In this document: one piece after another, positions 1,721 through 49,943 of the stretch
Numbering within the stretch: position 1 is the stretch's first letter
How the letters are laid out: every line of letters starts with the position of its first letter
Assembly: GCA_964016885.1 (NCBI GenBank)
Contig: OZ024740.1
Span: forward strand, 356,314,001-356,378,000
Reading direction: 5' to 3'
Source of the DNA: Eledone cirrhosa
Taxonomy: Eukaryota
Length of the DNA: 64,000 nt
The notes under the pieces: generated by a model
Databases searched by the model: none
What the model was told of the DNA's origin: nothing
Seen by the model: the letters and a program-made list of their open reading frames with translations, nothing else
Program-made: the position numbers and the translations under genes

Positions 1721-4476
1721 GCTTTAATAAATTGATTGAATCAATTTATCTATGATTTCATTTGCTTCATTAATCTCTTTATTACGCAGTGTTAATGTAA
1801 AATCATATTAGATATTTGTTTGTGTTTCAATATAATCCAAACTCTAGTTCAAGATTCTGTCAACCAAAAGAAGATATTTAAAAGGGTGAAGGAAATGAAA
1901 AATACAATTACTTGACATTATAATATTATCAACAACATTCATTAACATGGACATAACTTGTCATCGAAATCAGTTTAGTGTCATATTCTGTAACCTCGTT
2001 TTCTATTCTTATGGAAATAACACGATTTCTTATTACAGCGTATTTAGTAAATTTGTTTTGATTGAATTGTTTTGACAGCTGGCATGATTAAACGAAAGAA
2101 TAATTATTCAGTAAATAGTGTCATATATTGAAAACGTTTTTACCATTTAGTAACATTAACATTAGGTTTAAAGTAGCATTGTCTTAAAAGATATCTCAAG
2201 TATATGGGTGAGTGCACTAGCATATTTTACGTATTACATTTTCACCGTCTTTTTTTCTTTAACGATGTACATTCAGATCTAATATATTGTATGCTGGTAT
2301 ATTCACACTAAGCAGGAGGTAGCGAATGAACAATAAGCGTTTAGTTTAGTTAAACTCTTCAAAGATACAACATCCATGTAATTAACGCAGTCAGTTTGAG
2401 TTTCTTTTCTTTCTTATGTTAGAATAAATTTACGAGACGATTTCAATAGAAATTTGCATTTTAACGTGGTAAAACGACGAATGCCTGTATTGATGATAGA
2501 AAAATAAAACAAAACCAAAACAAAATACTTCAATGCTGAAAAACATGTGTGTTTCTGATGATTACTTTTAGGTAAATACTAAAGAAATCATTTTCCATAT
2601 CAATACAATTGAAATATCTCATTGCCAAACAGTTTGGTCGACTGCATATTATAGAAATAATACGATAACGAATTTCGAAATTATTTCTTTTGCCATAACG
2701 ACGTAAGCGTCCTATATTATACTAATACATAACAAATGAGAATTGTGGACTGTCTTCAGAAATATAAACAAAGCATGGTTTAGTCTTTGAAATAAGGTTG
2801 TCCTTTTCTTTAATTGTTTAGTAAAAATAACTAAAGATCTATTTCATTGCTTTTGCATTTGTTCAACTTATAAACATTATGTTATCATTATCCCACTTCG
2901 GATAGCGGGATGTTAGTCTACTATCACCTATCTATATACTACTAAAACTCTGATCTTGCGTGTTTGCTTGCTTGTGTGTTATGTAATAAAGCTAAAAGAG
3001 CGCATAATGGGTAAATACTTTGAAAGCAAGTTGCCTCTGAAATGGGAATACAAATTGAATAAAACAAGTTTCGCGAAAATCTGACCCCGGGTTCTCGAGA
3101 TTCGTGGGTTTTGGGGGTTTCTTCGTAAATAGCCACAACGGTGCATACTGGGAAAATACCTCGAAATTAACATAACCCTGCAAAACTTCGTAAATAGCCA
3201 AAAACATTGCATAATGAGAAAATACTCTGAATAAAACAATAATTTGGCGTAAATCGCACATGGACAATATTTTCAATTTTCCAAAAATAGCAAGAAATTC
3301 ATCTAAACTCAATTTATCTTATTTTATAATGAATATCGAAAGAAATAATCCATTTGTCTTTTGGTTGTCCATTCTGTAGGTAAGAGAGACAGAGAGGGGG
3401 TGAAAGAGAGAAAAAGGGAGGGGTGAGAGAGAAAAACAGAGAGTGAGAGTGAGAGAGAGAAAGAGAGAGAGAGTGAGGGGATGAGAGAGAGAGAGGGGGG
3501 ATGACAGATAGGGAAAGAGACAGCGTCCTTAATTTTTTATTTATTTTAACTCTCCTCCCTATCCATAACGTTATTTCTTTCTCTTTCACAGTTATACTGC
3601 CACCGTGTGTATCTGTATGTGTATGTGTGCCAGTGCATGTGTTTACGTACTTAGAGACATGTGTGTGTGTATGTGTGTGTAACAGTACTTAAGTTAGAGA
3701 CATATACATATATATATATATATATATATATTTGTGTGTGTGCGTGTGTGTGTGTGTGGGGGGGGGATACCTTTGTAAATAGCCAAAACGGTGCATAATG
3801 GAAAAATAGCCCTGGATAACCCTGAAATGGGGATAAAACAGGTTTGACGTAAATCGACATAAAAATATTTCTCGAATGATGAAAATAGTTTAATAATTAT
3901 TAAAACAAAAATTTTTCAGTGATTTCTCAGTGAATATGATTTCAAAACTACAAGTTGTTTGTACTTCAAGTATCTATATTTGAGCTTTCTTTAAACAGAC
4001 GATATTTTAATTATCAGAAAAGCATTAAGTGAATATCACTGAAAAATACCAGTTGGTGTTAAACAGTAGGTGTTTATATTTTTGCTTTTGCTAAAAAGAA
4101 TATTTCAATTATTTAGAAATATTTTAAAGTGAATTTGATTTCACAAATAGCTTTATTTACATAGACAATATCTTCATTTTTTTCAAAATTATTTTCAAGT
4201 GAATACGATGGAAAAAATATTTCTTGGCATATTTAAAAAATATTTTAAAATGCAAATTATTTGTACACTGAGTATATATATTTCAGCTTTCTTTAAACAG
4301 AATATTTTAATTATTAATAAGTATTTTTTAAGTGAATATGTTTTGAAAAATACGAGTTGTTTAAACAGACAATATTTCATTATTTAGAAATATTTCTAAA
4401 TGATGATTTAAAAAAAATATTTGTTGAGGTAATAGGAATTTTTTCTAAGGTGAATACGATTTTCGATTCTTAAATA

Positions 4477-7400
4477 ATGCCTCAACGAGGAAGAAAGAAA
4501 ACATCTGGCTGGTCTATCGATAGTGGAAAAAAAGCACGGCTAAGGAGAGCCGTAGAAGTTGAGCAAGATAGTGGACAACGCCAACAAGATCGGGACAGGC
4601 ATGCGAATAGAAGGATCGATGAGACTGATAAAGCAAGGGCTGCGCGTCTGGCGGAACATAGGGAAAGAGACAGAAGCAGGAGAGATCATGAATCGGATGG
4701 TCGGAGAGCTGAACGTCAGGCGGAACAGAGGGAAAGAGAGAGAAGCAGGAGAGATCATGAATCGGATGGTCTGAGAGCTGAGCGTCTGGCAGAACAGAGG
4801 GAAAGAGACAGAAGCAGGAGACATCATGAATCGGATGGTCGGAGGACTGAGCGTCAGACGGAACAGAGGGAAAGAGACAGAAGAAGGAGAGATCATGAAT
4901 CGGACGCTCGGAGAACTGAACGTCTTTGCCAACAAACCATTAGGAAGAACCTCAGACAATACAACTGCCTGTTCCAAATGACATATTTTGGGGCCGAAGA
5001 AGTTCGTTCCTCAAGGAGTGGATGGAATCCTTCTATCGTTATTCATGGTCAAATTCACCATTACATCGGTTCCTTAACCCCTAATACCAACGAACAACCC
5101 CAATTTCTTCAAATTTACTTCTTGGATCCTCAGGATAGTGTTGATTTGAGCATCAGGATACTCCATGATGATGGCATTCAGCGCGACATAGTTGAATTAT
5201 TGGAAATAATACTCAGACAATATAACCCTTACGTTGCTTCATTTCGAATGGCAAAAGAACAATTAAAAATATTCACGAAGCTTCGATTATTATTGATCCT
5301 GATAGGAGACCAGCAATGGAACATGAGAGAAGATTCAAAGCACAAACTGCAAACGAAGTTGCCGTTATTATACAAAACAGCACCGAACTTCAAGCAACAT
5401 TGTGTTGAAAGAAAAAGGCGGACAATTGCAAATAATCTAGAGTCCCATCGGTCCTATGATATTTTGCAGTATGTTCTATTTTTTCCTTTTGGCGATGACG
5501 GATGGCATCATGAGCTGTTAATGAGCAACAACAAGAAGTTGACACCAATGCGCTACTATGCCTATCGAATAACGAACCATGAGAATGAATTCAACCAACT
5601 TCTCAGAGGCAGTCGTTTATTTCAGCAATATTTGGTTGACTTGGCTGCGAAGAATGAAGGAGATAGACTGCAATACATCCGAATGAATCAAACATCATTG
5701 CATATCTACAACATACAAGGGCCTTACTGACGCATTGAATGATGACGATTTTCGCAATATTGGCAGGCGAATCATACTCTCTTCGACATTTGTCGGTGGA
5801 CCGAGATATATGATGGAGCGATGCCAGGATGCCATGATATACATACGGAAGTACGGCAATCCTTCGTTCTTCATCCCAAAGACATGCAATCCAAACTGGC
5901 CTGAAATCCGGCAAAACATATTACTGAATCAGAAGCCACATGACAGGCCAGGTTTAATTGTCAGAGTATTTGACCTGAAGCGGAAACTGTTAAGAAAGTA
6001 TCTTACTGGAGTAGATGACCTATTTGGCAAGTGCATTGCTTACGTGCTGACAGTCGAATATCAAAAGTGAGGTCTTCCTCATGTGCACTGTTTGCTATGG
6101 CTCAATGAAGCCTCAAAGCCCAGACCGCAGGAATATGATAAATTTGTTCAAGCCGAAATACCAGATCCAAACAAAGATCGAGAGGGTCATGAATTGGTGC
6201 TGAAGCACATGATCCACGGTCCGAATAGCTCTAACAATTCGCAGTGTTGGAAAGATGGAACGTGCAGTAAGCGGTACCCTAAGCCTTTCAATGAATATTC
6301 ATTGTGTGGAGAGGACTCTTATCCTGTGTACAGAAGACGGTCTCTAGGAATGGGAGGATTTGTGGGGCACCAAGAAGGAGGAGGAAGCCAAAATATAACT
6401 TCAGAATGGGTGGTTCCCTACAATATGAAACTATTAAAACTGTTCAACTGCCACCTAAACGTAGAGATGTGCTCTTCCGTGAAATCGATCAAATACGTTA
6501 TCAAATATACCAGTGAAGGGCAGTGATCAGGCAATGTTTGGAGTGAACAGGGAAGATGAGATAATACAGTATTTAACAGGAAGATATATCGGTCCTTCAG
6601 AAGCTGTTGCCTTGATACTTGGATTTCCAATTCATGAGAGAGAACCGGCCGTAGTTCGCCTTCAAGTTCATCTACCTGAGGAAAATCAAATCTTCTTACG
6701 GGTCAATGCTGCTGTTAAAGTAAACAATAACATGGCTAAGACGACTCTGACTGAGTTCATGGATCTTTGCGATCGCGATCCGTTTGCAAAACATTGTATT
6801 ATGTTGATGTGCCAAAGTTTTACACTTGGAGTAATAAGAGATGGGAAAGGAGAAAGGTGGGGAAAACAGTTAATCAGTATCTAGGGATTTTTGAGGCGAA
6901 CTATTTGGGACGAGCATACACTGTTTCTCCACGAAGTGGTGACCTGTATTATTTAAGACTCCTTCTGCATCACATCAAAGGGCCAGTATCCTTCAACTCT
7001 TTGAAAATGTGTGATGGAGAACTCCTGCCATTCAAAGACGTCTGCAGAGAGTAAGGTTTGCTTCAATCGGATGATCATTGGCAGCAGACTCTGGAAGATG
7101 CTGAGGGAACAAGGCCTCCCAAAGCCATGCGAGATCTATTCATCGTGCTCCTCACAAATACGGAAATTGACAATTTCAGTGCTTTATGGGTTCGATTTAA
7201 GCATTCGCTGTCTGAGGATTACAATCAAATAGAAAAAAAGGGCTACCAGAAGCCTCTATTGAATAGTGAACAAAAACACGTGTATGACTTCGTTTGTAAC
7301 AGTTTAGAGATGAACACATCTGCATCGATTTTCATTGACGCTCCAGGTGGAACAGGAAAGACATTTTTTATTAACTTAATTCCTTCAAAAGTCAGGGGAA

Positions 7401-8610
7401 ACGGTGACGTGGCTATTGCTGTTGTGTTATCTGGCATTGCCGCAACACTGATGCCTGGTGGAAGAACAGCGCATTCTAGGTTCAAAATAGCGATAGTAGT
7501 GAAAGAAAATGGTCTGTGCAACATTGATAAAAACTCAAAGACGGCAAACCTCTTCCAGCATACAAGGCTGATTGTTTGGGATGAGTGTCCTATGATTCGG
7601 AGGGAAAGCTTCGAAGCTGTTGACCTCACTCTGCGTGACATATGCGACAACAATGAGGTATTCGGTGGAATTTTGACAATTTGCTGTGGCCATTTCCGTC
7701 AGCTTCTTCCGGTAGTGAAAAGGAGAAATGAAGCGGACGTGGAAAACGCCTGCATTAAAAAATCCTACTTATGACGAAGCTTCAAAAGATTTCAGTTGAA
7801 GACAAACATGCGATTGGGTGGAGGAGCAGGAGACTATTAACAGTTCCTATTCGATATTGGAGAAGAGAAGATAAGATAAAAAAAACTGAAAATGAGGAAA
7901 TTATTTTGCCAAAAGAAATGGTTCTCCAAGCAACAACTATGGAAGAATGTATTGATTTCATCTACCCCTCATTCGACAATCCAGCTGAAGTGTTTTCGAA
8001 CAATTGCATCTTAGTACCTCTCAATGAAATGATGAGAAACATCAATTCCACCTGTATCAGACGCTTCCCTGGAACCATAAAAGAGTACCTATCCTATAAT
8101 TCTGTGAGTGATGGTGCCAATGCCACTCATTTCCCGACTGAATTCCTTGATTCGGTTGAACTATCATGACTGCCACCACATAACATGGAATTGAAAAAAG
8201 GATCGCCAATAATTCTTATGAGAAACTTGAATCCCCCAAGGCTTTGTAATGGAACGCGCATGATCGTGGAAGAACTGCATGACAATCTCATAGTAGCAAG
8301 AATCAACACTGCTGCTTTCAGAAATGAAATCGTTATGATACCTAGAATAAGAATTAATCTATCCGAAGGTGAGGATATCCATTTGCAGCGAAGCCAATTC
8401 CCAGTTCAATCGTGCTTCGCTATGACTATTCATAAAGCACAAGGACAAAATATGGAAAACGTCTTGGTTTATCTGGAACGACCTGTATTCTAACACGGTC
8501 AACTGTATGTAGCCCTTAGCCGCGGAAAACGAAAAGAAAATATCAGTGTTTCTGAAGGATACCCAGTCAACTAAGAATGTTGTCATCAAAAGCATTCTTT
8601 TGAACAAACT
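4477..8610 (+). pseudogene. Helitron RepHel (HUH Rep + Pif1-family helicase), frameshifted with stops
   Basis: Consecutive ORF fragments carry Rep motifs TCNPNWPEI, EYQK*GLPHVH, KSIKYVIKY and Pif1 motifs DAPGGTGKT, WDECPM, GHFRQLLPV, NGTRMIV, QFPVQSCFAMTIHKAQGQ. Confidence 0.93.
4640..4925 (+). repeat. 60-bp coding tandem repeat (~5 copies), Arg/Glu-rich N-terminus of RepHel
   Basis: AGAGATCATGAATCGGA recurs at 4681, 4749, 4819 (variant) and 4889; peptide RRDHESDGRRAERxAEQRERD is repeated. Confidence 0.8.
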
Positions 8611-17367: not shown

Positions 17368-20300
17368 TTACAGACACATACTCAGAGTAGGCCCATTCAC
17401 TCGGGCCATTCTTGCTTCTCTCACCCATCTTTCAACAAAATGCTGGGAAGAGAGCACTTCCCTCTCTACCCTGATTTTCCTTTTCAAATGAAATTTGAAA
17501 AAGTTAATTAGGGCATCACCGAAGAGGTAAGTGCTCGTCTTCAGCCCTTTCAAACGTGTCCACCATACTATCTCTTTCGCCATGGCCACCAGACAGATAA
17601 AAACTGCCTGCCCTTCCCGGCTAAAGGAAGAGGGCGGGGAAATCCTCACGATGGACTCAGCTGATAGTTGGATCCGTCCTACACGTGACAGCAGGTGTTC
17701 GACATAAACCCACAAGTCAGCAATGCTCGGACACTGGACGAGTGCGTGCAGGACGGTTTCGTCGCCCTGCGCGCATCTCGGACATGCCCGGATGACGGCA
17801 CCTCCATGCCTGTAGAGTTTATCCCGAACTGGCAAAGCTCCTCGGTAGCACTGCCAGCCCAGGGATTTCTGGAAGTTATCCATAGGCCTCGGCCCGAAAG
17901 TTCTTCCGAAGAGATTGGCTAGTTGATTTTCGTCGACGCCTAGAGTTTCTCCAAGTACGTCGTCGCTCTTCCCCTCCACTAATCCTCTATAGAACGCCAA
18001 GGTGGAGTTTCCACCGATCACATTGCCCGATTGGTCGAGGGTTATGAGCGCCTGAAGACATTCCAGTCTCCAAGCGCAGCTCCGTCAAGGAGACAAGCTG
18101 GGGAAAGACGCGTCTAGCAAACGGCGACCACACATGATCACCGTCGAGGAAGAGGTGGAGATGTCGTAGCCTGAGCACGTGTCTGCGCATCATCAGCCAC
18201 GGCATTCCCAGCCCTCCACGTAGCGGGTGTTGACCATCGGAGCGCGTCCCTTCCACAAAAAGCGAAAGAGCAAACGCTACAGCGCAGTCAGGCGGGGCTT
18301 AGGACAAGGTACGACGGTCAGGCGGTAGTAGATGACGGACGCAATGTACGCGTTATCCACCTGCGCTCGACCTTTCAGGGATAGCTTCCTCTCCGCCCAT
18401 TTCTGGGTGAGAGAAGCCACCCTGCTCGTCGCCTCGTCCCAGCTTTTGTCCGTCTGGAGGTTCGGACCGAACCAGACCCCTAGCAATTTAACCGGTCCGT
18501 CCGTCCAGCGCCCGACGACGCTGTTGGACGGCATGGACCTGCCTCTCCAGGTGCCGAGCTTCAGGCCCACTGACTTTTCCTGGTTGATCATTGATCCTGT
18601 CACCGCTTCGTATTCTCTTAGTGTAGTGCCGATCGCCTCGATGTGTTTGGCGTTCGACACCACTACGGTGACATCGTCCGCATATGCTGAGACGGATCTT
18701 CCGCATCCTGGTTCGCGCGGGACCCCCCTCAACGTCTCCAGTTTGTGCAGTAATGGCTCGAGAGTCAATACGTAGGACTGCCACAAGGTAACGATGGTCG
18801 ACCCTATCGAAAGCTTTCGACTGATCTAAATTGATCAAGGACCCACCCGTACCAGGTTCCCCAGCTACCTTCTCTACGATGTATCGCATGAGGTGGAGGT
18901 TGTCGTGGATGGATCTGATGGGAATGTCGCATGTCTGTGCCTCTCCCACCAGACAATCCAACGACAAGCGCCAACCTCTTTGCTAGCACCTTGGCCAAAA
19001 TCTTGAACTCTGTGTTTAGCAGAGTTATGGGCCTGAAATTATCTATGTTATCCCCCTTGTTCGGATCCTTTCTCAGCAGCGCCACAGCTCCTCGGCTCAA
19101 AGAGCTGGAAATTCTCCCGTTCTGTTGCCAGTTGCAGTAGACGTCCGCCAAGAGGCCTCCGAACAAGTCTGGCATATGTACGTAAAGTTCATAGGGCAGA
19201 CCATCCAAACCAGGCGATTTACCCCTTGTGCAGCGAGTTATTGCCTCCCGTACTTCAGCGGCTGTTATCGGCTTTTCGCAACACTCCGCCTCAGTGGCTG
19301 AGAGCTGCGGCAGTCCGTCGAGGTAGACACTAAAGTCCATCCCTCGATCCGGCCCGCCGGTGCCCCCGAACAGCTGGGCGAAGTGTCGCTGGAAAGCTTC
19401 ACACATTTGCCCGGGATCGAGTAGCATGCGCCTGTCGTGGTCCACCAAAGACCGGATCGTGGCTTTGTTGCCACGACGCGCCTCCGCCACTCGGGCCCAT
19501 TGAACGGCTTTCGTCCTCTCGTGTCTGAGAGAACGCACCCTAGCTCTGAAAACGCAGCCTTCGTGCTTTGCATTGAAGAATTGGTCAAGGGCCAATTTCG
19601 CCGCAAGTACGTCGGTGGCAATGCCTTTGCTAAGCGCCTCGTCTAATTTTCTAACTAGTTCTCCCTCTGCTCTATTTTTCACTATTGCTAAAGCCTTACT
19701 AAACCTAATGGACTCTATTCTAATCGCTCTATTCAGAGCAAACCACCACTTGTTGTTGACGATGGCCCCCCTCAACGCCCGCTTAACTAGTTCGCTAATC
19801 CGGTCTCTGTAGGTCTTGCGCGCTGGTAAGGAAGCGTTTAGCTTCCAGTAGCCGGGTCCTCCTCTATGAAGCCTATCTAAGTCAAGCATACAGATCAGGA
19901 ATTTGTGGTCCGTGTAGCTGACTATCTTGAATTGTGGACAGCCTATGCTAGACCTATCTATTTCCCTACAAAATACTCTATCTATATATGATCTGGATGA
20001 CCCTATGCGATTTGTCCAAGTCCACATTGGCACATTCGGGAAATCCAATCGGTACCTGTCAGACAGTTCAAAACGCCTGAGCAGGTTGGTGAGGCTCTTG
20101 CACCCTCCTCCCCTATCCGCTAATCCCACACAGTCCCAGCGTGCATCTAAGATCCCGTTCTAGTCACCCACTAAAGAGCGGGACGTTCCAAGAAAGGTCT
20201 CCAGACGCCGGAAGAAATCAGGCCGCCCTGCTCCTGTCGGGGCATAGACGGCCACTAGCCTGAAAGCTTGCCCGTCTCCGCTGGTCACGTCCAGCACCAC

Positions 20301-40953: not shown

Positions 40954-41036
<83 letters not shown>

Positions 41037-41251
41037 GTATATATATATATGTATATATACAAAAATGAGGTAAATATCTCACTGAGTAATAAGTACCCAT
41101 AGAGATATATAGGGTGTCTATAATATAATTGTTGTTCTATGGTACTAATTCGAGTTACCAGAACTATAAAAATTGATGAGCAGAACAAACAAACATTAAA
41201 CAATCCTTTAAATAAATTAAAAAATGATTTAAATATCTACCTGTTCACAAT

Positions 41252-41330
41252 GCTATTACCAGCGGTTTCTATTTACAAAAGATTGGAAATTCAGAGAATT
41301 TCCAACGGAAAGTAGATTTCATCAGATAGC
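41252..41330 (-). ncRNA. Type-I hammerhead ribozyme, inverted copy
   Basis: Reverse complement of 41870-41948 with a few substitutions. Confidence 0.8.
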
Positions 41331-41869
41331 TATTTCCTTTCTATAGGACATACGTCCCATGGTCCGCAAATATACTGCCAACTACCAGCTCGTATGAGTT
41401 ATGGCCGTTAAAGTGACCCACACGTGACCCGGCCGCTAGAGCAAGCGGGAATATTACAGACTTGTTGATGGCTTGGTTGCTAAAAAAATAGCAGTAAGCA
41501 ACAACGAATTTTTTCTCTACATAGATTGGAGAATGTATAAAAATGAGGTAAATATCTCACTGAGTAATAAGTACCCATAGAGATATATAGGGTGTCTATA
41601 ATATAATTGTTGTTCTATGGTACTAATTCGAGATGCCAGAACTATAATTTACCTCATTTTTATACATTCTCCAATCTATGTAGAGAAAAAATTCGTTATT
41701 GCTTACTGCTATTTTTTTAGCAGCCAAGCCATCAACAAGTCTGTAATATTCCCGCTTGCTCTAGCGGCCGGGTCACGTGTGGGTCACTTTAACGTCCATA
41801 ACTCATACGAGCTGGTAGTTGGCACTATATTTGCGGATCATGGGACGTATGTCCTATAGAAAGGAAATA

Positions 41870-41948
41870 GCTATCTGATGAAATCTACTTTCCGTTGGAA
41901 ATTCTCTTAATTTCCAATCTTTTGTAGATGGAAACCGCCGGTAATAGC
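41870..41948 (+). ncRNA. Type-I hammerhead ribozyme with extended stem II
   Basis: gctat-CTGATGA-a-atctac..ttggaaatt(ctctt)aatttccaa..gtagat-g-GAAA-cc(gcc)g-GTA-atagc. Confidence 0.85.
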
Positions 41949-42347
41949 ATTATGAACAGGTAGATATTTAAATCATTTTTTAATTTATTTAAAGGATTGT
42001 TTAATGTTTGTTTGTTCTGCTCATCAATTTTTATAGTTCTGGTATCTCGAATTAGTACCATAGAACAACAATTATATTATAGACACCCTATATTTCTCTA
42101 TGGGTACTTATTACTCAGTGAGATATTTACCTCATTTTTATATATTCTCCAATCTATGTAGAGAAAAAATTCGTTGTTGCTTACTGCTATTTTTTTAGCA
42201 GCCAAGCCATCAACAAGTCTGTAATATTCCCGCTTGCTCTAGCGGCCGGGTCACGTGTGGGTCACTTTAACGGCCATAACTCATACGAGCTGGTAGTTGG
42301 CACTATATTTGCGGACCATGGGACGTATGTCCTATAGAAAGGAAATA

Positions 42348-42426
42348 GCTATCTGATGAAATCTACTTTCCGTTGGAAATTCTCTAAATTTCCAATCTTT
42401 TGTAGATGGAAACCACCGGTAATGGT
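42348..42426 (+). ncRNA. Type-I hammerhead ribozyme, second tandem copy
   Basis: Same fold; stem I 3' strand ATGGT gives G-U pairs. Confidence 0.8.
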
Positions 42427-42504
42427 ATTATGAACAGGTAGATATTTAAATCATTTTTTAATTTATTTAAAGGATTGTTTAATGTCTGTTTGTTCTGCTC
42501 ATCA

Positions 42505-42548
<44 letters not shown>

Positions 42549-42553
42549 GTATG

Positions 42554-42631
<78 letters not shown>

Positions 42632-42635
<4 letters not shown>

Positions 42636-43443: not shown

Positions 43444-43994
43444 CTAGCAGAATGGCCCGGGGTTGCTCGGGATTCTAAACATAGATTGGCATGTTTATCC
43501 CCCTTTCTGAAACAGTTTCGTCGTATGTTCACCAATTGATGTAGAAGTCCTAATAAAAAGTGAAGTCGCCTTTGGTGAATAGGCAAATAATTTTCCAATA
43601 AGATTTTTCAAAAGCATGTAATTGCGTTCCCTCTCTTTTTTGCTGTTGTTTTTGCTGGTGTTGGTCGTATTACTAACACAGTCTCATCCTTCTTCAGCCA
43701 ATCGTGTATATCCCCTTCTGCCTCGTCAGCAATGATAACAATATTTGCTCTAAGGTTCTTATATATTTGATATATATTTATCCTAATCGAGCCTCGTGAA
43801 ATAAATACGTTTGTTTATATTTTGTTATTATGTATGCAAAAATATCTGTACACGAATATATAATTATATATATATATTAAAATAACAGATTAAAGTTTAA
43901 GCGAAGAATCGCTGCTTTCACCCTTAACGGGATCTTCTGAAACTAAAAGAATCAATCTGTGAACGCAGAAGTAAATATTTCGAAAAACATTACA

Positions 43995-44067
<73 letters not shown>

Positions 44068-47205: not shown

Positions 47206-48332
47206 CAAAGGTAATAACATGATAGAAAAAGGCGGAAAACGTAGGTGTTATACGTGTAGCCATTAGATCCATTTGACGGATTTCCCGCCAGGGATTTGTG
47301 AAAGGTAGAGATATATAGAGAAGTCACTATTTCCATTTAAATCTCATAAGTGTTAACATCTATAACGTCATATTTTCATTATAGCTTATTTTCTTTTGTT
47401 GTTTATTTTATAATTTCCCAAGTGTGTGTGCGTCTCTATGGGTGTGAGACACAGAGCGAAAGCAAATTTAGAGAATGTGTGAATATAATCGATAATTTAT
47501 CCGTATCTGAATATTCAATTACATTAATATATATAATATAAATAACAATAATTTATGTGTTTACTTAATTGGCTTTCAGCTGGTTTAATTTCACAACAAT
47601 TTTGCAATCATTTACAGACTGTTACCAATTAGCATTTACGTTTATCAATATAACGAGGAATAAATTGGATTTTAATGCGGTACAAAGTCAACGTTTGTAA
47701 ATGGAGTGTTTCTTATAAAACATTTCTCTTTCTCTCCCTCTCTCGCTATATATATATATATATATATAAAATTTGGTCGTTTTGGAGGCCTCAACAATTC
47801 TGATGGGTAAATCTCCGGGTAACAGAATCCGGTGATGAAGAGAGACATGTAAGAGGAGATGTACAATGTAGAATGAGACGTATAGTGTGTAGAGGAACGT
47901 AGGAAAGAGCGCAAAAATAAAAATAATAACACGAGATAGAGTTACCTTGGGAGAGATTTAATTGTCCCTATATTTCGGATTTCGCATCCATCAACTAGGG
48001 GATTTCGGAGGGGGAAAGTTATCTGTCGGAGAGGAACGGTACGTGGCCTCTGTTGTCCGCCGTGTGTGTGCAACTGAGATATTCTGTAGAGCGCGCGTGC
48101 GCTCGGAATAGGTGCGGTCAAGAAAAGGTCGAGGCAGTTCCTCTTTACTGTGGGAGTGGGAGGGTCTTCGCTGTCAATCCGTTATACTACGGTAGTGTTG
48201 GTAGTCTGCCTGGTCGCTTGTTGGTCGGTGGATGGTGGGGGCGCTATACACACAATAGCAATCGTTCGAATGCCCCTGTGTCTGTGTGTGTGTGTGTGTG
48301 TGTGTGTATGCGTGTGCTGTTGTCTCGTTTGT

Positions 48333-48786
48333 TTACACCAGCCACTTCGTCTCGCTTCTCTCGGATCGGTTGTTTATTTGTGGTCCCAGGCGTTTGATCC
48401 AAAGTGCTTCCTTGATTCGTAACGTGCCGACGTTGCGTTCTGTCGCTAGCACTGTGACGATGGGCTTTCCGTCTTTGTTTCCGCATTTGGTTATGTGTTT
48501 CCGGAAAGACGAGGCCCTGGTGTTGATGTGCTCCTTGATCCGGATATGTAGTGGCCGGATTGTGCTACCGATATAGTAGTGGTTGTACTTGTCACATTCT
48601 ACCCTGTATACAACGTATGTGCGTAAGCAACAGTTGGTTTGGCGCATCGGACAGTTTCCGAGGGAACACGCGTCAGTAGATTTCCCGGGTTTCCTGGAGA
48701 GGCATCTCCGTAGGGAGGGTCCCGAGTGGGCCAGGTGGATGTCAAGGCCCTCTCTCCATATAGCCCTGCGGATAGCGTTGGTGGTT
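48333..48786 (-). pseudogene. PLE C-terminal GIY-YIG endonuclease fragment
   Basis: YVVYRVECDKYNHYYIGSTIRPLHIRIKEH...LRIKEALWIKRLGPQIN. Confidence 0.85.
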
Positions 48787-48811
48787 CCTTAAAATCCCCT
48801 TAAGGCAAGCG

Positions 48812-49295
48812 CTACCTTAAAATTCTGCACCTGGGCGAGAAAACCACTAACGCTATCCACAGGGGTATACGGAGAGAGGGCCTCGACATCCACCTGGCCC
48901 ACTCGGGCCCCTCCCTACGGAGATGCCTCTCTAGGAAACCCGGGAAATCGACTGACGCGTGTTCCTTCAGAAACTGTCCGATGCGCCAAACGAACTGTTG
49001 CTTACGCTCATACGTTGTATACAGGGTAGAATGTGAGAAGTACAACCACTACTATATCGGTAGCACAATCCGGCCACTACATATCCGCATCAAGGAGCAC
49101 ATCAACACCAGGGCCTCGTCTTTCCGGAAATACATAACCAAATGCGGAAACAAAGACGGAAGGCCCATCGTCACAGTGCTAGCGACAGAACGCAACGACG
49201 GCACGTTACGAATCAAGGAAGCACTTTGGATCAAACGCCTGGGACCACAAATAAACAACCGATCCGAGAGAAGCGAGACGAGGTGGCTGGTGTAA
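48812..49295 (+). pseudogene. PLE C-terminal GIY-YIG endonuclease fragment
   Basis: Same motifs, with the Cys-rich linker CSFRNCPM...CC; no RT upstream. Confidence 0.85.
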
Positions 49296-49898
49296 ACAAA
49301 CAAGACAACAGCACACGCACACGCACACACACATTCGAACGATTGTTATTGTGTGTATAGCGCCCCCACCATCCACCGACCAACAAGCGACCAGGCAGAC
49401 TACCAACACTGCCAGTGTCAAAGACTGAATATAGGTAATATAATGGATTGACAGCGAAGACCCTCCCACTCCCACAGTAAAGAGGAACTGCCTCGACCTT
49501 TTCTTGACGGCACCTATTCCGAGCGCACGTGCGCTCTACAGAATATCTCAGTTGCACACAAACGGCGGACAACAGAGGCCACACACCGTTCCTCTCCGAC
49601 AGATAACTTTCCCCCTCGGAAACCCCCCAGTTGATGGATGCGAAATCCGAAATATAGGGACAATTAAATCTCTCCCAAGGTAACTCTATCTCGTGTAATT
49701 ATATTTATTTTTGCGCTCTTTCCTACGTTCCTCTACACACTATACGTCTCATTCTACATTGTACATCTCCTCTTACATGTCTCTCTTCACCACCGGATTC
49801 TGTTACCCGGAGATTTAACCATCTGCATTGTTGAGGCTTCCAAAACGACCACATTTTTATTATTATTCCACAATGCTTCAAGCAAACTTCAATACTCT

Positions 49899-49943
<45 letters not shown>

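What the first reader, a model, noticed from the sequence alone, without database searches (positions are those of the whole stretch)
41056..42508. 478-bp HHR monomer as a circularly permuted tandem on both arms of a foldback: candidate circular-RNA retrozyme
Seen: both inverted arms exceed one unit (~1.2 and ~1.8), read through the unit junction, end at different internal TATA-like sites, show no recognisable coding capacity, and have one well-formed HHR per unit. Established: animal retrozymes are tandem HHR repeats of a few hundred nt processed to circRNAs. Inference: two rolling-circle reverse transcripts of a 478-nt circle were primed from the two ends of one (TA)n break and joined head-to-head.
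Basis: partly seen in the sequence, partly recalled or inferred. Interest (0 to 1): 0.78.

Follow-up and report, generated by a model that had tools for sequence, protein, structure and literature searches.

The report
Ribozyme mini-retrotransposon with Penelope-type insertion
This is one copy of a high-copy, non-coding 478-base jumping element that carries a predicted self-cutting RNA and whose copies nearly always end at one of two fixed sites 110 bases apart, the hallmark of Penelope-like retrotransposons, which likely supply its enzymes; a circular RNA stage is possible but unproven.

Summary
Observation confirmed: a head-to-head foldback of 593 and 867 nt (1.24 and 1.81 units of 478 nt) in a (TA)n tract, non-coding, with three hammerhead motifs (cleavage site 41943). 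The ends are not free permutation points. Of 103 arms at 65 genomic loci, 96 end at one of two fixed sites 110 nt apart, and 51 of 52 classifiable foldbacks (three sister families) pair one site with the other. This is the Penelope-like (PLE) 'tail' pattern, made in vitro by two internal RT start sites; a coding PLE foldback 5 kb away shows it too. No copy runs into a PLE ORF, so this is a non-autonomous PLE / animal retrozyme. Circle evidence is mixed: tandem units share private variants and join cleanly across the ribozyme site, but some copies start exactly at that site or mix two haplotypes, which points to linear or two-molecule templates. The hammerhead is atypical (A·G at 10.1/11.1, palindromic helix III). 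No RNA data; the coding partner was not found. New variant of a known kind; interest 0.5.

The parts
40957..41059 (.). (TA)n target tract, left side
41055..41647 (-). Left arm, 593 nt (1.24 units); its 3' end is the distal fixed site (r478), its 5' end lies at r364
41055..41164 (-). The 110-nt 'tail' (r369-478), present at this end of the insertion only
   Evidence: tail concept from PMC8557442, PMC11167929
41252..41330 (-). Type I hammerhead motif 3 (core 41325-41319, GUA ending 41257; A·A at 10.1/11.1)
41647..41647 (.). Head-to-head junction of the two arms, 1-nt overlap
41647..42513 (+). Right arm, 867 nt (1.81 units); its 3' end is the proximal fixed site (r368), its 5' end lies at r458
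41668..42145 (+). One full 478-nt unit in the numbering used here (r1-r478)
41870..41948 (+). Type I hammerhead motif 1: helix I GCTAT/ATAGC, core 41875-41881, long helix II, A·G at 10.1/11.1, palindromic helix III, GUA ending 41943
41944..42421 (+). Predicted 478-nt monomer between two cleavage sites (the candidate circle); 35% G+C, folds at -122 kcal/mol as a circle against -93 +/- 5.7 for 40 shuffles
   Evidence: prediction
41953..42018 (+). Long hairpin just 5' of the proximal start site, kept with compensatory changes in sister family B; begins with a CAG/GT splice-donor-like motif
42020..42035 (+). Internal copy of the proximal RT start site (r368, ...TTTTTATA)
42036..42066 (+). Short hairpin right after the proximal site, the stretch best conserved between families A, B and C
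42128..42145 (+). Internal copy of the distal RT start site (r478, ...CATTTTTATA)
42348..42426 (+). Type I hammerhead motif 2 (core 42353-42359, GUA ending 42421; two G·U pairs in helix I, helix III loop changed)
42508..42632 (.). (TA)n target tract, right side

Best explanation
This is one insertion of a high-copy, non-coding 478-nt hammerhead retroelement that ends at two fixed sites 110 nt apart and was likely inserted by the reverse transcriptase-endonuclease of a coding Penelope-like element acting in trans. Steps: (1, inferred) a locus with more than one unit is transcribed; the palindromic helix III suggests the ribozyme cuts mainly as a dimer, so cleavage is partial. (2, inferred from PLE biochemistry) the PLE protein nicks both strands of a (TA)n tract. 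(3, shown as a genomic pattern) one cDNA starts at the proximal UUUUAUA site and the other at the distal one; both sites follow a conserved hairpin and end in TATA, which could pair with the target primer. (4, shown) each cDNA runs on across the unit junction and the ribozyme site without scars and stops at a variable place; the two ends are joined with a few bases of overlap or gap, giving a foldback with a tail on one arm. (5, inferred) the template is longer than one unit in effect: for this locus I put about 50% on one monomer read more than once (circle), 40% on a uniform linear multimer, 10% on later DNA-level duplication; across the family both linear and re-read templates likely occur.
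For: Fixed ends: 57 arms at r478, 39 at r368, 7 elsewhere of 103 arms at 65 loci; 91 of 94 fixed ends run into (TA)n. Pairing: 51 of 52 classifiable foldbacks in families A, B, G join one proximal with one distal end. The same two-end anatomy is seen in coding PLEs of this genome: window 47768-49901, tail about 44 nt, Neptune-type L091, tail about 65 nt with the ATG about 27 nt after the distal site, and an abundant 709-aa family, tail about 93 nt. Literature: inverted 5' copy, partial tandems, tail and (TA)n targeting are PLE features (PMC8557442, PMC3846280); PLE protein cleaves and extends both strands and starts at two internal RNA sites that bound the tail, with uncleaved RNA as main substrate (PMC11167929). 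Non-coding: no arm continues into a PLE ORF in 77 A, 25 B and 30 G loci. Ribozyme under selection: 96.9% of cells paired, compensatory changes in helices I and II; sister families C, D, G keep a canonical G-C at 10.1/11.1.
Against: No coding family with sequence similarity to the unit was found among 118 loci chosen for coding PLEs, so the partner is unnamed. The tail (105-110 nt) is longer than the 30-40 bp in the papers read. One same-site foldback exists (L300). Self-cleavage of family A is untested and its core has a rare A·G mismatch; 8 of 9 predicted Xenopus retrozymes did not cleave in vitro (10.64898/2026.07.22.740005). All loci were the best-scoring 40 of 479-2,345 candidates per search, so the sample leans to long, young copies.
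Confidence: 0.8

Rival explanations
1. One reading: the template is always a 478-nt RNA circle read by rolling-circle reverse transcription.
For: 92 of 93 passes through the cleavage site have no indel. Units of one insertion are closer (3.3%) than units of different insertions (5.0%); discordance at polymorphic sites 10% against 38%. Tandem units share locus-private alleles (A: 5 against 0.6 expected; B: 9 pair counts; G: 2). The three window copies are star-like and share 93T, 173A, 444T. The stop rate doubles after one unit length (1/221 to 1/114 per nt, P 3e-4), as strand displacement would give. Circles are proven for other animal retrozymes (PMC7229834).
Against: Some arms begin exactly at the cleavage site yet contain an intact site downstream (L128; family G: 5 stops against 0.7 expected, P 8e-4; family A: 4 against 4.2, no excess). 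Two independent insertions (L014, L016) carry the same two haplotypes in the same order, and 12 of 36 common-allele comparisons between tandem units disagree. In 3 of 24 foldbacks the arms carry different haplotypes. A finite linear template also raises the stop rate with length.
Confidence: 0.3
2. These are 5'-truncated tandem pseudo-LTRs of an ordinary coding PLE, not a separate non-coding element.
For: The end anatomy is that of coding PLEs; PLEs can carry hammerheads in tandem (PMC7229834 passage); 14 of 77 loci have PLE coding fragments within 1.5 kb.
Against: The 7 such loci read base by base are separated by (TA)n or other sequence, or are broken fusions in the wrong order (L007, L023). 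Arms of up to 2.0 units (A) and 3.4 units (B) still read unit after unit. Families A, B and C are alike over the whole unit and across its junction at about 70-77% identity.
Confidence: 0.07
3. The foldback arose by self-priming or DNA-level inverted duplication of one insertion, or is an assembly artefact.
For: Self-priming was proposed for head-to-head PLE junctions (PMC3846280); tandem growth at DNA level is likely in L158, whose units fall in two groups. No Logan contig spans the stretch.
Against: A fold-back copy would repeat the first arm's end, yet the arms end at different fixed sites in 51 of 52 cases and often extend past each other; the three window copies differ by 2-3% with private changes; the pattern recurs on many contigs.
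Confidence: 0.05
4. The enzyme comes from a LINE or a Naiad rather than a canonical hammerhead-bearing PLE.
For: No sequence link to a named partner; Naiads occur in octopuses and target (TA)n (PMC8557442).
Against: LINE-type TPRT is not known to give two fixed internal starts with a tail (PMC8557442 passage); Naiads lack canonical hammerheads; U·U at 10.1/11.1 is shared by sister family B and coding Neptune-type families here. A Naiad donor is not excluded.
Confidence: 0.1

Closest known systems
Animal non-LTR retrozymes (Cervera and de la Pena 2020, PMC7229834; Li, Clavereau and Pollet 2026 preprint 10.64898/2026.07.22.740005)
   Same: Non-coding, low-GC tandem unit with one type I hammerhead per unit; highly self-paired monomer; thousands of candidate copies; co-occurs with coding PLEs.
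   Different: Unit 478 nt (above the 150-450 bp of the 2020 paper, inside the 51-972 bp of the preprint); mostly dispersed partial tandems and foldbacks of 0.1-3 units rather than long arrays; atypical hammerhead; two fixed ends and inverted arms, which the passages read do not describe ('inverted' has 0 occurrences in PMC7229834); circle not shown.
EN+ Penelope-like elements (Penelope/Poseidon, Neptune; PAc of Anolis, PMC11167929; Adineta Pen2, PMC3846280)
   Same: Partial tandem, 5' inverted copy, tail on one end, hammerhead with long helix II, short helix I and palindromic helix III, AT-rich or (TA)n target, 5' truncation.
   Different: No ORF; tail 110 nt instead of 30-40; both start sites end in TATA matching the target, whereas PAc starts at a site not homologous to the cut DNA.
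Non-autonomous Chlamys elements such as MRC1 (PMC8557442)
   Same: Non-coding PLE derivatives with pseudo-LTRs and multicopy head-to-tail insertions in microsatellites.
   Different: Those lack canonical hammerheads and usually share 3' sequence with a coding family; here there is a hammerhead and no matching coding family was found.

Membership tests
Penelope-like element (autonomous) | ORF with RT and GIY-YIG endonuclease | tested here: not met
   No ORF or PLE protein hit in the element
Penelope-like element (non-autonomous) | Partial tandem (pseudo-LTR) arrangement with 5' truncation | tested here: met
   Arms of 0.1-2.0 units reading through the junction, variable 5' ends
Penelope-like element (non-autonomous) | Inverted 5'-truncated copy joined head to head | tested here: met
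   34 foldbacks at 65 loci
Penelope-like element (non-autonomous) | Tail on one end only (two fixed 3' ends) | tested here: met
   96 of 103 arms at r368 or r478; 51 of 52 foldbacks mixed; tail 110 nt, longer than published
Penelope-like element (non-autonomous) | Microsatellite or AT-rich target | tested here: met
   91 of 94 fixed ends run into (TA)n
Penelope-like element (non-autonomous) | Hammerhead in the terminal repeat, dimer type | tested here: met
   Core intact in 71 of 79 copies, covariation, palindromic helix III
Penelope-like element (non-autonomous) | 3' sequence shared with a coding family of the same genome | tested here: inconclusive
   None among 118 loci from about nine coding families; the sample is the top of 10,595 and 12,439 candidates
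Animal non-LTR retrozyme | Tandem non-coding units, each with a type I hammerhead, GC under 50% | tested here: met
   Three motifs in three units, 35% GC
Animal non-LTR retrozyme | Canonical hammerhead (G10.1-C11.1, usual helix sizes, loop 1-loop 2 contact) | tested here: not met
   A·G in 74 of 80 copies, 5-bp helix I, long helix II, no Rfam match; sister families C, D, G have G-C
Animal non-LTR retrozyme | Self-cleavage of the RNA | not testable with these tools
   Indirect only: two A copies and several G copies begin at the cleavage site
Animal non-LTR retrozyme | Monomer-length circular RNA in tissues | not testable with these tools
   No RNA holder listed
Animal non-LTR retrozyme | Target-site duplication longer than 4 bp | tested here: inconclusive
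   Cannot be read inside (TA)n tracts

The most novel reading that the evidence does not exclude
A superfamily of 465-480 nt hammerhead circles is inserted by an asymmetric PLE enzyme dimer in which one subunit starts at the proximal site and the other at the distal site, each on its own RNA, so that arms of different haplotypes, and even of different families, are joined in one event. The genome would then record, thousands of times over, how retrozyme circles become DNA and how PLE tandem, inverted and tail structures form.
Probability: 0.3. Interest if true: 0.75.

Novelty: new variant of a known kind. Interest (0 to 1): 0.5.

Why it matters
That PLEs move animal retrozymes has been argued from shared ribozymes, co-occurrence and pLTR homology. 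Here a retrozyme-type unit shows the mechanistic footprint of PLE insertion itself: two fixed starts and a near-strict one-proximal-one-distal rule in foldbacks. The short, non-coding unit with base-exact start sites makes a long-open question (how PLEs build tandem and inverted ends, and whether a circle is the template) directly testable in vitro and countable in one genome.

Tried and rejected
Rfam: no hammerhead at gathering score or E<=10. RNA runs: no RNA holder listed; two runs of unknown kind laid as contigs gave only short pieces and say nothing on expression or on the assembly of this locus. Partner search: blastn, shuffled local alignment and an A/B/C nhmmer profile against 118 coding-PLE loci gave only further non-coding sister copies and hammerhead-level or AT-rich matches. 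The tandem next to the Neptune ORF in L092 is a separate insertion behind a (TA)n tract. Template jumping with scars at the cleavage site: rejected as the usual route, 92 of 93 junctions clean. Excess of 5' stops at the two start sites, which looked strong by eye and fits this window's junction: not significant (10 against 6.6 and 10 against 7.4). The constrained hammerhead fold was cut one to two bases off register, so helix I was not tested there; only its helix III duplex energies are used. Earlier scan findings: none returned. An intron between a GT motif after the ribozyme and a TAG at r53: 6-7 of 9 matches to a recalled U1 consensus in seven families, but both motifs also lie in hairpin stems and no control was run, so it is left as an idea.

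Full report
Observation. The element lies between two (TA)n tracts (40957-41059, 42508-42632). With a 478-nt unit, the left arm runs 41647->41055 on the minus strand (593 nt, 1.24 units) and the right arm 41647->42513 on the plus strand (867 nt, 1.81 units); they overlap by one base and the copies are 97-98% alike. There is no long ORF. Three hammerhead motifs have cores at 41875, 42353 and 41325 (minus), with GUA ending at 41943, 42421 and 41257. I number the unit r1-r478 from 41668; the cleavage site is after r276.

The family. The window is in a 3.0-Gb animal genome; its (TA)n richness and repeat content look like an octopus to me (recalled, not tested). Four DNA searches with the unit or parts of it gave 2,345, 1,918, 1,944 and 479 candidates, of which 40 were scored each time; these are not copy numbers. 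Of 90 loci from the first three searches I kept 65 after dropping repeats by hand; the fourth added 12 new loci of 30. Copies differ from the majority by 3.1% on average.

Two fixed ends. Of 103 arms at the 65 loci, 57 end at r478, 39 at r368 and 7 elsewhere; 5' ends are scattered. 91 of 94 fixed ends run into (TA)n. Of 34 foldbacks, 31 join an r368 arm to an r478 arm, 3 have an unclassifiable end and none is same-site. The 12 extra loci add 2 mixed, 1 same-site (L300) and 2 irregular. Sister family B (467 nt, 26 loci) gives 11 mixed and 1 unclassifiable; family G (482 nt, 30 loci) gives 7 mixed. Pooled, 51 of 52. So the 'different internal TATA-like sites' are not permutation points but two start sites 110 nt apart. 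Each follows a conserved hairpin; 7 of 54 predicted pairs in this region change on both sides between A and B.

This is PLE anatomy. Craig et al. 2021 (PMC8557442; passages and section 10 read) describe partial tandems, an inverted 5'-truncated copy, a 30-40 bp tail at one end, (TA)n targeting and non-autonomous elements with head-to-tail copies. Arkhipova et al. 2013 (PMC3846280; passages) show the same in a rotifer and that the repeats suffice for movement in trans. Frangieh et al. 2024 (PMC11167929; parts 1-2 of 4 read) show a PLE protein cleaving and extending both strands, starting at two internal RNA sites that bound the tail, with uncleaved RNA as the main substrate. Coding PLEs of this genome show the pattern too: a GIY-YIG foldback at window 47768-49901 with a 44-nt tail, a full-length Neptune-type element with RT and GIY-YIG, tail about 65 nt, and an abundant 709-aa family, tail about 93 nt.

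It is non-coding. tblastn with PLE proteins hit 5 of 90 A/B loci, 14 of 77 A loci once the 709-aa protein was added and 3 of 30 G loci, outside the arms. Seven were read base by base: they are separate insertions, apart from L007 (an arm broken at r407 fused to an endonuclease end) and L023 (a 46-nt inverted copy of the arm's end fused to an RT piece), neither in the order a pseudo-LTR and its ORF would give. Families A, B and C are alike over the whole unit and its junction, so the unit has long evolved on its own. No coding partner was found among 118 coding-PLE loci; the search was limited to the best-scoring families.

The ribozyme. All 12 core bases are intact in 71 of 79 copies; helix II pair 218:260 is C-G in 39 and U-A in 29 of 81. 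Over 34 distinct A and B sequences 96.9% of cells pair and three pairs change on both sides, against 21-51% pairing when partners are slid; most of these changes are single A-versus-B events. Helix III is a palindrome that can pair between two copies (-10.2 kcal/mol for motif 1), as in PLE hammerheads thought to act as dimers (PMC4209133; parts 1-2 of 4 read). Against 'well-formed': 10.1/11.1 is A·G in 74 of 80 copies, Rfam has no match and the local MFE fold lacks helix I. A U·U start of stem II is reported as natural and tolerated (PMC3088659; passages); I found nothing on A·G. Families C, D and G have G-C.

Circle or linear template. For a re-read monomer: 92 of 93 passes through the cleavage site are free of indels; units within an insertion differ by 3.3% against 5.0% between insertions, and by 10% against 38% at polymorphic sites; tandem units share locus-private alleles (A 5 against 0.6 expected, B 9 pair counts, G 2); the three window copies are star-like with shared alleles; the stop rate rises from 1/221 to 1/114 per base after one unit length (P 3e-4); the monomer folds far better than shuffles. 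Against an exclusive circle: arms that begin at the cleavage site while holding an intact site downstream (L128; G 5 stops against 0.7, P 8e-4; but A 4 against 4.2); 12 of 36 common-allele comparisons between tandem units disagree, and L014 and L016 carry the same two haplotypes in the same order; 3 of 24 foldbacks have arms of different haplotype. No RNA run was listed. I conclude that both template types likely occur and that the circle is about even odds for this locus. The window copy has the longest total of the 65 loci and is one of few with two whole ribozymes in one arm, so it could be a donor, though its second ribozyme is damaged.

Comparison and novelty. It works like a non-autonomous PLE and meets every structural test for one except a named partner. 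It meets the broad retrozyme definition (tandem, non-coding, hammerhead per unit) but not the canonical-hammerhead criterion, and circles are untested. Cervera and de la Pena 2020 (PMC7229834; passages; supplement could not be read) name PLEs as the likely movers; the 2026 preprint (parts 1-3 of 5 read; supplements closed) supports this by co-occurrence and pLTR homology in 35 species, none a mollusc. Searches for an octopus or cephalopod retrozyme, or for the pairing rule or chimeric foldbacks, returned nothing that describes them; subscription papers and unread supplements may. What is added is the PLE insertion footprint on a retrozyme-type unit, a long tail, a near-strict pairing rule, and hints that the two arms can come from two RNAs. 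Verdict: new variant of a known kind, interest 0.5.

Noticed in passing
window 47768-49901: A second foldback, this one coding: inverted GIY-YIG endonuclease ends of a PLE (Pfam PF01541 on both arms), in (TA)n, with a 44-nt tail on one arm and a minimal hammerhead-like motif near 49628; its family has 2,366 candidates and the same two fixed ends.
   Followed up: yes
L092 7504-8419; L178 1309-2011; L201 1236-1515; L058 2909-3044; L161 1960-2330; L155 430-1010; L196 1630-2430: At least seven sister non-coding hammerhead families (B-H); units measured at 467 (B), about 465 (C) and 482 nt (G); B and G have 1,904 and 2,490 candidates and two fixed ends 105 and 109 nt apart.
   Followed up: partly
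L005, L024, L041, L053, L060, L149, L227, L239: An A, B or G arm is joined head to head, with no TA spacer, to a 5'-truncated arm of a different TA-targeting family (in L239 the coding family of window 47768-49901). This may be co-insertion of two RNAs; four junctions of the other kind (L016, L019, L148, L168) show that successive insertion with target deletion also happens.
   Followed up: partly
L241-L268 (e.g. L261 1961-4087): A very abundant young PLE-like family with intact 709-aa ORFs (12,439 candidates), no Pfam hit at E<=0.1, weak blastp match to the Neptune RT, tail about 93 nt; a candidate enzyme donor.
   Followed up: partly
L062, L094, L092 hammerheads: Hammerheads of coding Neptune-type families and of family B start stem II with U·U, a variant reported as rare but tolerated (PMC3088659).
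   Followed up: partly
window 43580-43998: Pieces of the 709-aa family's terminal repeat and tail beside (TA)n.
   Followed up: partly
window 52465 (plus) and 10973 (minus): Two further minimal hammerhead motifs with palindromic helix III, belonging to other repeat families also seen beside L060 and L041.
   Followed up: no
window 4474-7774: Helitron remnants (Helitron_like_N below cut-off, PIF1 helicase E 4.5e-54).
   Followed up: no
window 17368-20159 (minus): LINE-like remnant (zf-RVT hit at 17368-18084).
   Followed up: no
unit r291 (window 41958) and families B-H: A splice-donor-like GT motif 12-20 nt after the cleavage site in seven families, and a TAG at r53; an intron here would span both RT start sites, as the 5' UTR intron of some PLEs spans the pLTR boundary. 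Untested.
   Followed up: partly
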